In this document: positions 11,228-63,858 of the stretch, in pieces
Layout: every line of letters starts with the position of its first letter
How positions within the stretch are numbered: position 1 is the stretch's first letter
Sequence record: OR757454.1
Reading direction: 5' to 3' (one strand)
Length of the DNA: 64,000 nt
Source: Escherichia phage BYEP02
Position numbers and translations under genes: made by a program
The notes under the pieces: model-generated
What the model saw: the letters and a program-made list of their open reading frames with translations, nothing else
Database searches by the model: none
Told to the model about the DNA's origin: nothing

Positions 11228-11525
11228 TGGCAAAGATAATTATTGAAGGTTCTGAAGATGTGCTAAATGCTTTCGCCGAATGGTTTAGTAATTCAGGCGA
11301 ACAGCAATTTAATGAAGCGTGGAAGGTTCTAAAGATGTGCTAAATGCTTTCGCCGAATGGTTTAGTAATTCAGGCGAACAGCAATTTAACGAAGCATGGA
11401 ACATGGGTGATATTAATGGAATTTATCCTACTACAGAAATTTCTGTTCAAGGATATGGCATTCATGAACCTATTCGTTTAGTTGAATACGATTTATGTAC
11501 TGGTGAGGAAGTCAAATATGATTGA
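11227..11525 (+). CDS. hypothetical small protein, frameshifted by a 77-bp duplication
   Basis: ATG 11227 overlapping upstream stop; 74 codons after removing 77 nt. Confidence 0.45.
11245..11398. repeat. 77-bp tandem duplication (11245-11321 / 11322-11398), 3 mismatches
   Basis: Read directly. Confidence 0.9.
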
Positions 11526-11784
11526 AGATATTAAAGGTTATAAGCCACATACCGACGAAAAAATCGGTAAAGTAAATGCTATTAAAGACGCTGAAGTTCG
11601 TTTAGGACTTATCTTTGATGCTTTATACGATGAATTTTGGGAAGCACTAGATAATTGTGAAGACTGTGAATTCGCGAAGAATTATGCTGAAAGCCTCGAT
11701 CAGTTAACCATTGCTAAAACGAAACTCAAAGAAGCCAGTATGTGGGCTTGTCGTGCTGTGTTCCAACCAGAGGAAAAATATTAA
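11518..11784 (+). CDS. hypothetical protein (88 aa)
   Basis: ATG with GAGGAAG RBS. Confidence 0.45.
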
Positions 11785-12062
11785 TGGCTCAATTAAGCGC
11801 AGGGTTTGGTTATGAGTATTATACTGCCCCTCGTCGTGTATCTGTTGCTCCTAAGAAAATTCAAAGTCTTGATGACTTCCAGGAAGTAGTCCGTAAAGCT
11901 TTCCAGGACTATGCACGTTATCTTAAAGAAGATTCACAGGACTGTCTCGAAGAAGATGAAATTGCTTACTATGAGCAACGTCTTGAACAGCTCAAAAACC
12001 TACATGAGGTTCGTGCAGAAGTTTCAAAGTCTATGAATAAATTGATTAGATTTAAAGAATAA
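11785..12062 (+). CDS. hypothetical protein (92 aa)
   Basis: ATG directly after upstream stop. Confidence 0.45.
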
Positions 12063-12064
12063 CT

Positions 12065-12094
12065 GTTTACTTTTCCTCTTGACTGTGGTATAAT
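12065..12094 (+). promoter_or_regulatory. T4 early-type promoter (GTTTAC, 18 nt, TATAAT)
   Basis: Upstream of regB. Confidence 0.55.
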
Positions 12095-12121
12095 TTTTCT
12101 ATCAGTTAAGAGGAGAATAAC

Positions 12122-12583
12122 ATGACTATCAATACAGAAGTTTTTATCCGTCGAAATAAGCTCCGTCGTCACTTTGAGTCGGAGTTTCGTCAAATTAACA
12201 ATGAGATTCGTGAGGCATCAAAAGCAGCAGGGGTCTCATCGTTTCATCTAAAATATTCTCAACATCTTCTTGATCGTGCAATTCAACGGGAGATTGATGA
12301 GACATACGTTTTTGAATTATTCCATAAAATAAAAGACCATGTTTTAGAAGTTAATGAATTCCTGAGTATGCCTCCGCGTCCTGACATTGACGAGGATTTT
12401 ATTGATGGGGTTGAATATCGTCCTGGACGTTTAGAAATCACAGATGGAAATCTTTGGCTTGGATTTACAGTTTGTAAACCTAACGCGAAGTTCAAAGACC
12501 CGTCACTTCAGTGTAGGATGGCAATTATCAACAGTCGTCGTTTACCGGGAAAGGCTTCTAAAGCAGTAATTAAAACTCAATGA
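12122..12583 (+). CDS. regB: RegB sequence-specific endoribonuclease
   Basis: Translation MTINTEVFIRRNKLRRHFESEFRQ... matches T4 RegB as recalled; 153 aa. Confidence 0.85.
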   Translation: MTINTEVFIRRNKLRRHFESEFRQINNEIREASKAAGVSSFHLKYSQHLLDRAIQREIDETYVFELFHKIKDHVLEVNEFLSMPPRPDIDEDFIDGVEYRPGRLEITDGNLWLGFTVCKPNAKFKDPSLQCRMAIINSRRLPGKASKAVIKTQ

Positions 12584-12590
12584 GGTAAGC

Positions 12591-13136
12591 ATGAGAAAAG
12601 CACTACTCGCTGGTCTATTGGCCATTTCAATGATGGCACATAGCTCCGAGCATACTTTCAGTAATGTCCAACTCGATAACATGCGTTACGCGTATCAATT
12701 CGGGGAACAATTTTCTAAGGATGGAAAATATAAAACACACAAAAATATCCACAAGAGCGGATTGGGTCATATAATGGCTGCTATTTTATGGCAAGAAAGC
12801 TCTGCCGGAGTTAATTTAAAATCTAAACCAAAGCATCATGCCTATGGAATGTTCCAAAATTATTTGCCGACTATGCGAGCAAGAGTTAAGGAACTTGGTT
12901 ATAATATGACCGATGCTGAAATAAAAAGAATGTTGAATAAACGGTCCAATTCAGCTTCATGGGCGTACATTGAACTTTCTTATTGGTTAAATATACATAA
13001 GGGCGATATAAGAAAGGCAATATCCTCTTATAATTCGGGATGGAATGTTAAAGCAGGTTCTAAATATGCTTCTGAAGTCCTAGAAAAGGCTAATTACCTT
13101 AAAAATAATAAACTTTTGGAAATAGTAAATGACTAA
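12591..13136 (+). CDS. secreted protein, possibly lytic-transglycosylase-like
   Basis: Signal peptide MRKALLAGLLAISMMAHS; WQESS motif resembling a transglycosylase catalytic Glu-Ser. Confidence 0.5.
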   Translation: MRKALLAGLLAISMMAHSSEHTFSNVQLDNMRYAYQFGEQFSKDGKYKTHKNIHKSGLGHIMAAILWQESSAGVNLKSKPKHHAYGMFQNYLPTMRARVKELGYNMTDAEIKRMLNKRSNSASWAYIELSYWLNIHKGDIRKAISSYNSGWNVKAGSKYASEVLEKANYLKNNKLLEIVND

Positions 13137-13470
13137 AATTTTGGTTTTATGTATAGGATTAATTTCATTTTCTGCGTTAGCAAATACATCATACACTGAA
13201 ATTAGAGAGTATGTAAACCGTACTGCCGCGGATTATTGTGGGAAAAATAAAGCATGCCAAGCTGAATTTGCGCAGAAATTAATATATGCATATAAAGACG
13301 GAGAAAGAGATAAATCAAGTAGATACAAAAATGATACTTTATTAAAACGATATGCTAAAAAGTGGAATACCTTAGAATGTTCAGTTGCGGAGGAGAAAGA
13401 TAAAGCCGCTTGTCATTCAATGGTTGACCGTTTGGTAGATTCTTATAATCGAGGATTGAGTACTAGATGA
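13129..13470 (+). CDS. secreted/periplasmic protein (113 aa)
   Basis: Signal peptide MTKILVLCIGLISFSALA; four Cys. Confidence 0.5.
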   Translation: MTKILVLCIGLISFSALANTSYTEIREYVNRTAADYCGKNKACQAEFAQKLIYAYKDGERDKSSRYKNDTLLKRYAKKWNTLECSVAEEKDKAACHSMVDRLVDSYNRGLSTR

Positions 13471-13581
13471 TTGTAAAATATATCAAGGGCGATATTGTCG
13501 CCCTCCGTTTGGTAGATTCTTATAATCGAGGATTGAGTACTAGATGATTGTAAAATATATCAAGGGCGATATTGTCGCCCT
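13428..13581. repeat. 77-bp tandem duplication (13428-13504 / 13505-13581), identical; spans a gene junction, both genes intact
   Basis: Read directly. Confidence 0.9.
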
Positions 13582-14011
13582 TTTCGCTGAAGGTAAAAAT
13601 ATTGCGCATGGATGTAATTGTTTTCACACGATGAAAGCTGGAGTCGCAGGTCAATTAACTAAAGCTTTCCCTAAAATTTTGGAAGCTGATAAATTACAGA
13701 CAGAATGGGGCGATGTAACTAAACTCGGTTCTTACTCAGTCTATGAAAAATACTTTAGGACTCATAAAGCTTACTGCTTCAATCTTTATACTCAATTTCA
13801 ACCGGGGCCAAATTTTGAGTATTCCGCTTTAATGAATTGTATGTTAGAATTAAATGAGTTTGGTGAAAATAAACTGATTAAACCTACAATCTATATGCCT
13901 AGGATTGGTGCAGGCATAGGTAAAGGGAACTGGGATATTATTGAGGGGATTTTAGATACATATTCCTCTAAATTAGAAATTGTGATTGTTGATTGGGAAC
14001 CGTTATTATGA
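13544..14011 (+). CDS. macro-domain-like protein (ADP-ribose binding/processing fold)
   Basis: N-terminal KGDIVAL...AHGCNC...MKAGVAGQL follows the macro-domain pattern; C-terminal PRIGAGIGKGNW. Confidence 0.5.
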   Translation: MIVKYIKGDIVALFAEGKNIAHGCNCFHTMKAGVAGQLTKAFPKILEADKLQTEWGDVTKLGSYSVYEKYFRTHKAYCFNLYTQFQPGPNFEYSALMNCMLELNEFGENKLIKPTIYMPRIGAGIGKGNWDIIEGILDTYSSKLEIVIVDWEPLL

Positions 14012-14220
14012 ATATACATTATCCACATCCGTATGACCCAAAGAATAAGGCAGTAATTATTCGTCAATGGGAACGCATTTGCCGTACTAAATGTCCAATT
14101 AATAGTCCACATGATGTAGATAAAGACTACATTGGAACATTCGTTGAATATACCTTTATTGATAAGAAAGGTCGTAAACAACATGTAGAAGAATATTGCT
14201 TAAAGGTTACATGGTTATGA
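14008..14220 (+). CDS. hypothetical protein (70 aa)
   Basis: ATGA overlap with upstream stop. Confidence 0.45.
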   Translation: MNIHYPHPYDPKNKAVIIRQWERICRTKCPINSPHDVDKDYIGTFVEYTFIDKKGRKQHVEEYCLKVTWL

Positions 14221-14423
14221 GCCAAACTAGTATTCTTAAAAATGCCCACTGCGAAAAGTGTAAGTGGCCGGTTGTTTTTGCTTTATGCAACGATGAAATG
14301 ACTTGTGATTTCGATTATTGGTGCTATTGTTCTAATAAAGGATGCATCAATCATAAAGGTGAAGGATTTTATTCAGGATTTTATCCTTATCCTGATTTCG
14401 TTAAAGAAGGTAAACCAAAATGA
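14217..14423 (+). CDS. Cys-rich small protein (CxxC ... CxC ... C)
   Basis: CEKCKW...CNDEMTCDFDYWCYCSNKGC. Confidence 0.45.
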   Translation: MSQTSILKNAHCEKCKWPVVFALCNDEMTCDFDYWCYCSNKGCINHKGEGFYSGFYPYPDFVKEGKPK

Positions 14424-14596
14424 ATGATGATTTAAAATATCAATTATTACGTGAACTTGATGTTTTGATTAAACTTTCTGCGCAAAAAGGATTTATAATT
14501 GGATCAGGTCAAAAAGACCCCAACGGTCATTCAATCGTAGCAGTTATGAATCAGAAACGAGTCATTTTAAAACTTTTGGGGATTGACATACTGTGA
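14420..14596 (+). CDS. hypothetical protein (58 aa)
   Basis: ATGA overlap; not in supplied ORF track (below its length cutoff). Confidence 0.4.
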   Translation: MNDDLKYQLLRELDVLIKLSAQKGFIIGSGQKDPNGHSIVAVMNQKRVILKLLGIDIL

Positions 14597-14778
14597 GCCT
14601 AAGCAAAGAACAAAAAGATAAATTGTTTGAGCTTATCCATGAACTTCTAGATGAGCATACAGAAGCAAACACCTTTTATGATGAATACGGCCCGCTATCT
14701 CCTGAACAGCAGGAAGAATTTGCTGATCGGTTTGATAAGAAAGAAAATGAATTAATAGCTTATGTGAATACGCTTTAA
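14593..14778 (+). CDS. hypothetical acidic protein (61 aa), GTG start
   Basis: GTGA overlap with upstream stop. Confidence 0.45.
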   Translation: MSLSKEQKDKLFELIHELLDEHTEANTFYDEYGPLSPEQQEEFADRFDKKENELIAYVNTL

Positions 14779-14787
14779 GAAGGTGAT

Positions 14788-15369
14788 ATGGCGAGTTTAA
14801 TTTTTACTTATGCAGCAATGAATGCTGGAAAATCTGCTTCTCTTTTGACTGCTGCGCATAATTATAAAGAACGCGGAATGAGTGTATTAGTTCTTAAGCC
14901 TGCTATTGATACTCGCGATTCTGTCTGTGAAGTCGTTTCTCGCATTGGAATTAAGCAGGAAGCGAATATTATTACGGATGATATGGATATTTTTGAGTTC
15001 TATAAATGGGCTGAAGCACAAAAAGATATTCATTGCGTATTTGTAGATGAAGCTCAGTTTTTAAAAACTGAACAGGTGCATCAATTAAGCCGAATTGTTG
15101 ATACATATAATGTTCCTGTTATGGCTTATGGGCTAAGGACTGATTTCGCTGGAAAATTATTTGAAGGTTCTAAAGAACTTTTGGCGATTGCAGATAAACT
15201 TATTGAACTAAAAGCAGTTTGTCATTGTGGTAAAAAAGCTATTATGACAGCTCGATTAATGGAAGATGGAACACCAGTTAAAGAAGGTAATCAAATCTGT
15301 ATTGGTGATGAAATTTATGTTTCTTTGTGTAGAAAACATTGGAATGAATTAACTAAAAAGCTCGGTTAG
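14788..15369 (+). CDS. tk: thymidine kinase
   Basis: Translation MASLIFTYAAMNAGKSASLL... with P-loop; matches T4 Tk. Confidence 0.95.
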   Translation: MASLIFTYAAMNAGKSASLLTAAHNYKERGMSVLVLKPAIDTRDSVCEVVSRIGIKQEANIITDDMDIFEFYKWAEAQKDIHCVFVDEAQFLKTEQVHQLSRIVDTYNVPVMAYGLRTDFAGKLFEGSKELLAIADKLIELKAVCHCGKKAIMTARLMEDGTPVKEGNQICIGDEIYVSLCRKHWNELTKKLG

Positions 15370-15378
15370 TGCAAAAGT

Positions 15379-15386
15379 TATAAATA
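15379..15386 (+). promoter_or_regulatory. T4 late promoter TATAAATA
   Basis: Exact TATAAATA ~26 nt upstream of ATG 15412. Confidence 0.5.
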
Positions 15387-15411
15387 GGTTTATCTAACTA
15401 AAGGGGTATAT

Positions 15412-15624
15412 ATGCTACAATTAACTGAAAAGCAACTTCGCAATCTTACTGTTCTTCAATTAGATGAAATTCGTAGGGAAGTTGGAAATATCATTTCAGC
15501 TTTGCGTCGAGAAGTATCACTCAACCAATCTCCGGCAGACTATACTAGATTGCGAAATTTTGAAAAATACCTTGATAGAGTTAAGGCCGTGCATCGGCAT
15601 AAAGTAAATACAGGACAAAAATGA
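15412..15624 (+). CDS. hypothetical protein (70 aa)
   Basis: ORF with GGGG RBS. Confidence 0.5.
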
Positions 15625-62609: not shown

Positions 62610-62635
62610 AGCTTCTGAAGTATATGGAGGCTATC

Positions 62636-63259
62636 ATGATTATTAATCTTGCAGATGTTGAACAGTTATCTATAAAAGCTGAAAGCGTTGATTTTCAATA
62701 TGATATGTATAAAAAGGTCTGTGAAAAATTTACTGACTTTGAACAGTCAATTCTTTGGCAATGTATGGAAGCCAAAAAGAATGAAGCTCTTCATCGGCAG
62801 TTGAATAAAATCATTAAAAAGCATTTAACTAAATCGCCTTATCAGTTATATCGTGGTATATCAAAATCGACAAAAGAACTTATTAAAGATTTACAAGTTG
62901 GAGAAGTGTTTTCAACGAACAGGGTAGATTCATTTACTACTAGTTTACTCACAGCATGTTCTTTTTCTTATGCTGAATATTTTACTAAAATAATATTCCG
63001 CTTAAAAACTGATAAAGCTTTTAATTATTCTGACCATATCAGCGATATTATACTTTCTTCTCCTAATACTGAGTTCAAGTACACGTATGAAGATACTGAT
63101 GGGCTAGATTCAGAGCGTACTGATAACTTAATGATGATTGTGCGTGAACAAGAATGGATGATTCCAATTGGAAAGTATAGAATAACTTCTATTTCAAAAG
63201 AAAAATTACACGATTCATTTGGAACATTTAAAGTTTATGATATTGAGGTAGTTGAATGA
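62636..63259 (+). CDS. modB: ADP-ribosyltransferase ModB-like
   Basis: R-S-EXE type motifs: YRG, FTTS, EQEWMIP; ~207 aa; immediately before modA. Confidence 0.75.
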   Translation: MIINLADVEQLSIKAESVDFQYDMYKKVCEKFTDFEQSILWQCMEAKKNEALHRQLNKIIKKHLTKSPYQLYRGISKSTKELIKDLQVGEVFSTNRVDSFTTSLLTACSFSYAEYFTKIIFRLKTDKAFNYSDHISDIILSSPNTEFKYTYEDTDGLDSERTDNLMMIVREQEWMIPIGKYRITSISKEKLHDSFGTFKVYDIEVVE

Positions 63260-63858
63260 AATACTCAGTAATGCAACTAAAAGATTTTAAAATAAAATCA
63301 ATGGATACATCGGTGCGTGCTTCTATTCGTGAAGAATTACTTTCTGAAGGGTTTAATTTATCTGAAATTGAACTTTTAATTCATTGTATTACTAATAAGC
63401 CAGATGACCATACTTGGTTAAATGAAATAATCAAATCTCGTTTGGTTCCAAACGATAAACCTCTTTGGAGAGGTGTTCCAGCTGAGACTAAGCAGGTGTT
63501 AAATCAAGGAATTGATATTATTACATTTGATAAAGTCGTATCAGCTTCATATGATAAAAATATAGCTCTACATTTTGCTTCCGGTTTAGAGTATAACACG
63601 CAAGTTATTTTTGAATTCAAAGCTCCTATGGTATTTAATTTCCAGGAGTATGCTATAAAAGCTCTACGTTGTAAAGAATATAGTCCGAGTTTTAAGTTTC
63701 CGGATAGCCATCGTTATCGTAATATGGAATTAGTTTCAGATGAACAAGAAGTAATGATACCAGCTGGAAGTGTATTTAGAATTGCGGATAGATATGAGTA
63801 TAAAAAGCATTCAACATACACTATCTATACTCTTGACTTTGAAGGATTTAATCTATAA
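63256..63858 (+). CDS. modA: ADP-ribosyltransferase ModA-like
   Basis: WRG, SAS, EQEVMIP motifs; 200 aa. Confidence 0.75.
   Translation: MKYSVMQLKDFKIKSMDTSVRASIREELLSEGFNLSEIELLIHCITNKPDDHTWLNEIIKSRLVPNDKPLWRGVPAETKQVLNQGIDIITFDKVVSASYDKNIALHFASGLEYNTQVIFEFKAPMVFNFQEYAIKALRCKEYSPSFKFPDSHRYRNMELVSDEQEVMIPAGSVFRIADRYEYKKHSTYTIYTLDFEGFNL

What the first reader, a model, noticed from the sequence alone, without database searches (positions are those of the whole stretch)
13544..14011. Macro-domain-like ORF in the same genome as ModA/ModB ADP-ribosyltransferases
The N-terminus (KGDIVAL ... AHGCNC ... MKAGVAGQL) fits the macro-domain pattern for ADP-ribose binding or removal. The phage encodes ModB and ModA at 62636-63858. 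A macro domain could reverse or read ADP-ribosylation, or counter host ADP-ribosylating defences.
Basis: inference. Interest (0 to 1): 0.55.

Follow-up and report, generated by a model that had tools for sequence, protein, structure and literature searches.

The report
T4 Tk.4/AdfM anti-DarTG2 macrodomain gene
The ORF is a genuine macrodomain, the T4-type gene tk.4 (now called adfM), which has already been shown genetically in phage T4 to protect against the bacterial DNA-ADP-ribosylating defence DarTG2, so the finding is correct but already known.

The parts
13544..14011 (+). tk.4 / adfM coding sequence (155 aa, stop included); a single macrodomain with no extra domain
13607..13618 (+). Codons H22-G23-C24-N25 (H-x-C-N motif). 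N25 is the macrodomain active-site Asn, equivalent to DarG N22, PhiKZ AdfM N23 and SCO6735 N27. H22 is equivalent to SCO6735 H24, and G23 sits at the V25 backbone position.
   Evidence: G23 and N25 are invariant and H22 and C24 are at least 90% conserved in 80 homologs. Alignment to references. Roles in SCO6735, DarG and PhiKZ AdfM.
13631..13651 (+). Codons M30-G36 (MKAGVAG), the Gly-rich ribose/phosphate-binding loop 1. It holds the only two differences from T4 Tk.4 (K31 for G, A32 for S).
   Evidence: G33 and A35 invariant. Differences from T4. Aligned with the MGAG/MGKG loop of TARG1/DarG.
13781..13795 (+). Codons N80-L-Y-T-Q84. Q84 occupies the position of the catalytic Lys of DarG (K80), TARG1 (K84) and PhiKZ AdfM (K78), and of the essential Gln85 of SCO6735.
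   Evidence: Y82 and Q84 invariant, N80 and T83 at least 90% conserved. hhalign columns. MAFFT. SCO6735 Q85A/E is inactive.
13898..13933 (+). Codons P119-W130 (PRIGAGIGKGNW), the phosphate-binding loop 2. G126 aligns with TARG1 D125, so the TARG1 Lys/Asp dyad is absent.
   Evidence: P119, I121, G122 and G124 invariant. Alignment to PRIGCGLAGGxW of BT1257/SCO6735 and PRIGCGLDRLQW of TARG1.
13129..13470 (+). vs (valyl-tRNA synthetase modifier), the upstream gene. In relatives its TGA overlaps the tk.4 ATG (ATGA), which implies co-transcription and translational coupling.
   Evidence: PHROG 1256 at E 6.5e-40. NBEco003 and T4 annotation show a 4-nt overlap of vs and tk.4.
13428..13581 (+). Perfect 77-bp tandem duplication (2.0 copies) spanning the vs stop and the tk.4 start. 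It creates a 26-codon mini-ORF (13467..13547) between intact vs and intact tk.4, ending again in ATGA on the real tk.4 start.
   Evidence: TRF reports 100% match, period 77. Alignment to NBEco003 shows a 77-bp insertion. Mini-ORF translation. Junction absent from phage records, IMG/VR and JGI metagenomes.

Best explanation
The ORF is the ortholog of T4 tk.4 (adfM), a standalone phage macrodomain that acts as an 'orphan antitoxin' against the bacterial DarTG2 defence. On infection, DarT2 ADP-ribosylates thymidines in single-stranded phage DNA and blocks replication. Tk.4 most likely binds the ADP-ribose through its two Gly-rich loops and hydrolyses the thymidine-ribose N-glycosidic bond, restoring replicable DNA. 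It does this not with the catalytic lysine of DarG/TARG1 but with the Gln-type active site described for Streptomyces SCO6735. In that model, Gln84 is held by Asn25 and positions the distal ribose, while a water molecule held on the backbone at position 23 starts the reaction. What is shown: the macrodomain fold, the orthology, and (in the literature, for T4) the anti-DarTG2 phenotype. What is inferred: the hydrolytic mechanism and the roles of the individual residues.
For: Identity and fold are covered. Orthology: 153/155 identical to T4 Tk.4 with the same vs-tk.4-tk.3 synteny. Function in T4: tk.4 was the single significant transposon-screen hit in DarTG2-expressing cells, and a clean knockout was sensitised (10.1101/2025.11.20.689424). 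Precedent that a phage macrodomain removes DarT2-made ADPr from DNA in vitro: PhiKZ gp104 (PMC13309987). Precedent that a Gln-type enzyme of this class does the chemistry: SCO6735 cleaves dT-ADPr faster than DarG/TARG1 and rescues E. coli from DarT, Q85A/E is inactive and N27S nearly inactive (PMC9411070). Tk.4 conserves the matching H22, N25 and Q84, and N25 and Q84 are invariant in 80 homologs down to 33% identity. hhalign places Q84 on DarG K80 and TARG1 K84 at 98.9% and 98.4% probability. An NJ tree puts the Tk.4 clade sister to BT1257+SCO6735 (35/40 bootstraps) and apart from DarG+PhiKZ AdfM (40/40).
Against: No biochemistry exists for T4 Tk.4 or this protein in what I could find; the preprint itself only says enzymatic removal 'seems likely'. 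The genetic evidence is a preprint, not peer reviewed. Tk.4 lacks the 5-6-residue longer 'mobile loop', with its Lys89, that defines the SCO6735 subclass and was implicated in DNA binding, so the mechanism may not transfer exactly. SCO6735 Q85A still inhibits DarT by binding, so protection by direct toxin inhibition cannot be excluded. This window's protein differs from T4's at two loop-1 residues (G31K, S32A), with unknown effect. The SCO6735 mechanism itself rests on MD simulation and mutagenesis.
Confidence: 0.8

Rival explanations
1. Eraser or regulator of the phage's own ADP-ribosylation: Tk.4 removes or reads the ADP-ribose (or RNA-ADP-ribose) that Alt, ModA and ModB put on host RNA polymerase, S1 and other proteins.
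For: ModB and ModA are encoded in the same window. The protein is a macrodomain with an intact ADPr-binding site. Arg-specific macrodomains do exist, for example Legionella MavL (title).
Against: The distributions do not match: 2733 phage records carry a Tk.4 homolog, many in phage groups where no ModB homolog was detected, against 1010 records with ModB. The genes are about 49 kb apart. In T4 the only reported conditional phenotype is against DarTG2. Characterised members of this class act on dT-ADPr and Glu/Asp-ADPr, while Alt/Mod make Arg-ADPr (established knowledge). Alt-type ARTs were not included in the distribution test.
Confidence: 0.06
2. Small-molecule enzyme: an ADP-ribose-1''-phosphate phosphatase or O-acetyl-ADP-ribose deacetylase (the 'phosphatase'/'Poa1p-like' label in databases), acting on NAD-derived metabolites rather than on DNA.
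Against: The label is inherited from the domain name, not from an assay. Such an activity does not explain the DarTG2-specific phenotype. Many macrodomains show weak Appr1p/OAADPr activity as a side reaction (established knowledge).
Confidence: 0.05
3. Non-catalytic inhibitor: Tk.4 protects by binding and blocking DarT2, or by shielding ADP-ribosylated DNA, without hydrolysis.
For: It lacks the catalytic Lys of DarG/TARG1. Catalytically dead SCO6735 Q85A, DarG K80A and TARG1 K84A all still inhibit DarT in vitro.
Against: N25 and Q84 are invariant and H22 is at least 90% conserved across distant homologs, which argues for selection on an active site. It lacks the C-terminal DarT-binding domain of DarG, being 155 aa and single-domain. 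The Gln-type relative SCO6735 is the fastest dT-ADPr hydrolase of the three tested.
Confidence: 0.07

Closest known systems
T4 Tk.4 = AdfM (anti-DarT factor Macrodomain), bioRxiv 10.1101/2025.11.20.689424
   Same: Ortholog: 153/155 identical, same length, same position between vs and tk.3. All conserved active-site residues are identical.
   Different: Two substitutions in loop 1 (G31K, S32A). This window has a 77-bp tandem duplication across the start of the gene that T4 and all searched relatives lack.
Streptomyces coelicolor SCO6735 / Bacteroides BT1257 (Gln-type subclass of ALC1-like macrodomains; PDB 5E3B, 2FG1)
   Different: Only 20-29% identity. Tk.4 lacks the 5-6-residue longer mobile loop that defines that subclass. 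It is phage-borne rather than cellular.
DarG macrodomain (antitoxin of DarTG2; PDB 5M3E, 5M3I) and PhiKZ gp104 'AdfM' (PMC13309987)
   Different: Catalytic Lys (K80/K78) replaced by Gln84. NCBIfam DarG scores 25 bits against a cut-off of 250. There is no C-terminal DarT-binding domain and no adjacent darT. BLASTP to PhiKZ gp104 finds only a 23-residue match. The two sit in separate, well-supported clades. The two phage proteins that share the name AdfM are therefore not orthologs.
Human TARG1/OARD1 (PDB 4J5S)
   Same: Top Foldseek hit (E 9e-10, TM 0.71-0.78), and the T83 position is shared. TARG1 also removes dT-ADPr.
   Different: The K84/D125 dyad is replaced by Q84/G126. TARG1 has Ser where Tk.4 has Asn25.
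T4 AdfN (30.3, NADAR) - anti-DarTG1 (PMC11825919)
   Same: Same strategy, in the same type of phage: a standalone antitoxin-like ADP-ribosylglycohydrolase that undoes DarT damage.
   Different: Unrelated fold (NADAR). It acts on guanine-ADPr made by DarT1, not on thymidine-ADPr.

Membership tests
Macrodomain superfamily (Pfam PF01661) | Profile match above the curated gathering score | tested here: met
   25.0 bits against a cut-off of 22, covering profile positions 2-113 of 118.
Macrodomain superfamily (Pfam PF01661) | Three-layer alpha/beta/alpha macro fold | tested here: met
Macrodomain superfamily (Pfam PF01661) | Binds ADP-ribose | not testable with these tools
   Only inferred, from conserved Gly-rich loops 30-36 and 119-130 and Asn25.
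T4 Tk.4 / AdfM orthologous group | High identity and conserved synteny (vs - tk.4 - tk.3 ... tk) | tested here: met
   153/155 identical to NP_049723; gene order matches.
T4 Tk.4 / AdfM orthologous group | Confers resistance to DarTG2 | not testable with these tools
   Shown for T4 only, in a preprint.
ALC1-like (TARG1/DarG/Poa1p/SCO6735) macrodomain class | Closest structural and profile neighbours belong to this class, separated from other classes | tested here: met
DarG-type antitoxin macrodomain | Catalytic lysine (Taq/Mtb K80) | tested here: not met
   Invariant Gln84 aligns to it.
DarG-type antitoxin macrodomain | NCBIfam NF048014 equivalog score | tested here: not met
   25.1 bits against a cut-off of 250.
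DarG-type antitoxin macrodomain | C-terminal DarT-binding domain and an adjacent darT gene | tested here: not met
   The protein is 155 aa and single-domain. Its neighbours are vs and tk.3.
DarG-type antitoxin macrodomain | Conserved active-site Asn (N22) | tested here: met
   N25 is invariant and aligned.
SCO6735/BT1257 Gln-type subclass | Gln at the catalytic position, held by a conserved Asn; His-x-Cys-Asn motif | tested here: met
   H22, C24, N25 and Q84 align with H24, C26, N27 and Q85.
SCO6735/BT1257 Gln-type subclass | Mobile loop about 5 residues longer than in DarG/TARG1 (stated as characteristic of the subclass) | tested here: not met
   The Tk.4 loop has the DarG/TARG1 length, and BT1257 and SCO6735 carry a 5-6-residue insertion relative to it.
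SCO6735/BT1257 Gln-type subclass | Phylogenetic grouping | tested here: inconclusive
   Sister relationship in 35 of 40 NJ bootstraps, on 16 sequences only. Tk.4 is a distinct clade, not nested inside.
Poa1p-like Appr-1''-p phosphatase | Phosphatase activity on ADP-ribose-1''-phosphate | not testable with these tools

The most novel reading that the evidence does not exclude
The Tk.4 clade, present in about 5% of sequenced phage genomes, could be a third and mechanistically distinct solution within this macrodomain class: a Gln-type active site on a short-loop scaffold. Its substrate range could be wider than DarT2 damage, for example Glu/Asp-linked protein ADPr or RNA-linked ADPr from other host ART defences. 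That would make it a broad-spectrum anti-ADP-ribosylation factor rather than a DarTG2-specific one. It would also mean the two phage proteins now both called AdfM are convergent recruitments from different macrodomain lineages.
Probability: 0.25. Interest if true: 0.45.

Novelty: already known. Interest (0 to 1): 0.2.

Why it matters
For the scan it matters mainly as a calibration point. Biologically, tk.4/adfM shows that T4-type phages carry separate standalone 'orphan antitoxins' for the two DarTG types: the NADAR protein AdfN for guanine-ADPr and the macrodomain AdfM for thymidine-ADPr. The small addition from this work is that the T4-type AdfM uses Gln where DarG and PhiKZ AdfM use the catalytic Lys. 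It resembles SCO6735 in this respect, so it is not simply a captured DarG. That guides which mutants to make (Q84, N25, H22 rather than a lysine). It also flags that one name now covers two lineages.

Tried and rejected
- NCBIfam and PADLOC gave only weak DarG matches (25-30 bits), far below membership level, so 'captured DarG' was rejected.
- I looked for cellular homologs next to a DarT-like toxin. The two 'bacterial MAG' homologs I examined (P0070, P0098) sit on T4-like phage contigs carrying Rnl1, a Dda-like helicase, Pnk, a spanin and dCMP deaminase. That gave no information on a cellular origin.
- The ModA/ModB partnership was rejected on distribution, genomic distance and class chemistry.
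- The duplication junction was searched in phage records, IMG/VR and JGI metagenomes with no contiguous match. It cannot be shown to be either real or an assembly artefact.
- The promoter scan of 11500-15500 found fewer sigma-70-like sites than in shuffles (11 against 15.6), so nothing can be said about timing from it.
- The hairpin at the start of tk.4 is only modestly better than shuffles (z -2.2).
- The ArcZ-tk.4 RNA contact reported for T2 had no detectable effect on protein level.
- Not done: checking that DarTG2-sensitive phages such as T5 lack a homolog, docking of ADP-ribose, and a large-scale phylogeny.

Full report
**Observation**

Independent evidence identifies it as a macrodomain:
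- Pfam PF01661 Macro scores 25.0 bits against a gathering cut-off of 22, over almost the whole profile.
- PHROG 335 matches at E 1.4e-64.
- PDB sequence hits are BT1257 (E 2e-8), Poa1p, TARG1/OARD1, SCO6735 and DarG.
- A profile of 80 homologs raises these to E 9e-19 (BT1257), 4e-16 (TARG1), 9e-15 (SCO6735) and 3.5e-14 (Mtb DarG).
- An AlphaFold2 model built on that alignment is confident, with pLDDT 95.3 and pTM 0.90.
- Foldseek puts TARG1, Poa1p, BT1257 and DarG on top, with TM 0.7-0.8.

**Which gene it is**

The window comes from a T4-like phage (Tequatrovirus). Its first 20 kb are 98.8% identical to phage slur03. The local gene order is regB, vs.1, vs, this ORF, small tk.x ORFs, then tk, which matches T4. 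The protein is 153/155 identical to T4 Tk.4 (NP_049723) and differs only at G31K and S32A. It is 100% identical to the copy in phage NBEco003.

Public records already call the gene 'macro domain protein', 'Poa1p-like family protein' or 'phosphatase (contains A1pp phosphatase motif)'. The A1pp/macro match in tk.4 orthologs was published in 2006 (PMC1524935).

**What is known about its function**

- The HIDEN-SEQ preprint (bioRxiv 10.1101/2025.11.20.689424) screened a T4 transposon library on cells expressing DarTG2. It found tk.4 as the single significant hit, and a clean tk.4 knockout became sensitive to DarTG2. The authors renamed the gene adfM (anti-DarT factor Macrodomain) and considered enzymatic removal of ADP-ribose from DNA 'likely'.
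- A separate study gave the same name to PhiKZ gp104. [quoted passage not shown]
- A full-text sweep for 'tk.4' found no biochemical study of the T4 protein. The other mentions are a stock-drift SNP and an ArcZ sRNA contact in T2 with no effect on protein level.

**Mechanism: what this work adds**

T4-type Tk.4 is not a DarG-type macrodomain. PhiKZ gp104 matches Mtb DarG at E 9e-25. This protein matches Mtb DarG only at E 0.1, and BLASTP aligns only 23 residues of it with PhiKZ gp104. NCBIfam DarG scores 25 bits against a cut-off of 250.

In 80 homologs down to 33% identity, the invariant residues are G23, N25, G33, A35, D49, Y82, Q84, P119, I121, G122 and G124. Profile-profile alignments to DarG-type sequences (98.9% probability) and to TARG1 (98.4%) both place Q84 on the catalytic lysine (DarG K80, TARG1 K84). 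They place G126 on TARG1 D125.

This is the situation described for Streptomyces SCO6735 (PMC9411070), where Gln85 replaces the lysine:
- The enzyme still cleaves DarT-made thymidine-ADPr on ssDNA faster than DarG or TARG1 and rescues E. coli from DarT.
- It does not touch guanine-ADPr.
- Q85A/E is inactive and N27S nearly inactive.
- The proposed chemistry uses a water molecule held by the backbone of V25, with Gln85 (locked by Asn27) positioning the distal ribose.

In a MAFFT alignment, Tk.4 H22-G23-C24-N25 matches SCO6735 H24-V25-C26-N27, and Q84 matches Q85. PRIGAGIGKGNW matches PRIGCGLAGGTW. A rough NJ tree gives three results:
- The Tk.4 family is monophyletic (40/40 bootstraps).
- It is sister to BT1257+SCO6735 (35/40).
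- It is separate from DarG+PhiKZ AdfM (40/40).

One defining feature of the SCO6735 subclass is not met. Its mobile loop is about 5 residues longer, and Tk.4 has the short DarG/TARG1 length. I therefore describe Tk.4 as working like SCO6735 but as a separate, phage-borne clade.

**The ModA/ModB idea**

ModB and ModA are present at 62624..63259 and 63256..63858, but nothing links them to this gene:
- Tk.4 homologs are found in 2733 of 50,697 phage records. These include 182 Pseudomonas, 128 Vibrio, 92 Acinetobacter and 86 Aeromonas phage records, plus Felixounavirus-sized genomes.
- ModB homologs are found in 1010 records, and the organism names listed for them are enterobacterial.
- The genes are about 49 kb apart.
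- The characterised enzymes of this class act on thymidine-ADPr and Glu/Asp-ADPr. Alt/ModA/ModB make arginine-linked ADPr (established knowledge, not tested here).

I give this reading about 6%. The 'phosphatase' reading (about 5%) rests on a label inherited from the domain name. A non-catalytic DarT-blocking role (about 7%) cannot be excluded, because catalytically dead SCO6735, DarG and TARG1 still inhibit DarT. The invariant active-site residues argue against it.

**Origin**

The homologs retrieved are essentially phage-borne and standalone. Two that are labelled as bacterial MAG proteins sit on T4-like phage contigs. No adjacent darT-like gene was seen.

**Seen in passing**

A perfect 77-bp tandem duplication (13428..13581) spans the vs stop and the tk.4 start. 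Both genes stay intact, and a 26-codon mini-ORF (MIVKYIKGDIVALRLVDSYNRGLSTR) is inserted between them. The mini-ORF ends in the same ATGA overlap on the true tk.4 start. NBEco003 lacks the duplication, and so does every phage record, IMG/VR contig and JGI metagenome contig searched. Its right edge lies one base short of the 3' end of an 8-bp-stem hairpin just inside tk.4. It may be a recent slippage event or an assembly artefact.

**Verdict**

The gene and its role are already known. The Gln-for-Lys active site and the non-orthology of the two 'AdfM' proteins are a modest refinement that I did not find stated in the parts of the cited papers that I read. Interest is low (0.2).

Noticed in passing
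window 13428-13581: Perfect 77-bp tandem duplication (2.0 copies, 100% identity) spanning the vs stop codon and the tk.4 start codon. It leaves both genes intact and creates a 26-codon mini-ORF (13467-13547, MIVKYIKGDIVALRLVDSYNRGLSTR*) that again ends in ATGA on the real tk.4 start. It is absent from NBEco003 (which has an identical Tk.4 protein), from all 501 matching phage records, and from IMG/VR and JGI metagenomes. It could be a recent slippage event or an assembly artefact.
   Followed up: yes
window 13562-13582 (copy at 13485-13505): GC-rich hairpin AAGGGCGATATTGTCGCCCTT (8-9 bp stem) within codons 7-13 of tk.4. The right boundary of the 77-bp duplication lies one base short of its 3' end. 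The fold is only modestly better than shuffles (z -2.2). It could influence translation initiation or have promoted the duplication.
   Followed up: partly
literature (10.1101/2025.11.20.689424 and PMC13309987), compared with window 13544-14011: The name AdfM has been given independently to T4 Tk.4 and to PhiKZ gp104. These are not orthologs. gp104 is a DarG-type, Lys-containing macrodomain (E 9e-25 to Mtb DarG). Tk.4 is a Gln-type clade nearer SCO6735/BT1257, and BLASTP finds only a 23-residue match between the two.
   Followed up: yes
window 13634-13639 (codons 31-32): The only differences from T4 Tk.4 are G31K and S32A in the Gly-rich loop 1, where the family consensus is MGAG. The Lys lies one position from the SCO6735 Lys34 that helps position DNA. 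The same variant occurs in NBEco003.
   Followed up: partly
window 14008-14778: Four small overlapping ORFs lie between tk.4 and tk, as in NBEco003, whereas the T4 RefSeq record annotates three (tk.3, tk.2, tk.1). This is a small gene-content difference in a hypervariable stretch.
   Followed up: no
L003 (GCA_051648945.1) and L004 (GCA_051660865.1): Contigs deposited in MAGs labelled Bacilli and Culicoidibacterales carry T4-like phage genes (Rnl1, Dda-like helicase, Pnk, spanin, dCMP deaminase) around the macrodomain gene. They are probably phage contigs binned into bacterial genomes.
   Followed up: partly
window 12591-13136: vs.1 (181 aa), two genes upstream of tk.4, is 'unknown function' in PHROGs. 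It was reported to carry an SLT lytic-transglycosylase-like domain in the 2006 comparison, and one record annotates it as a lytic transglycosylase. It has an N-terminal signal-like sequence.
   Followed up: no
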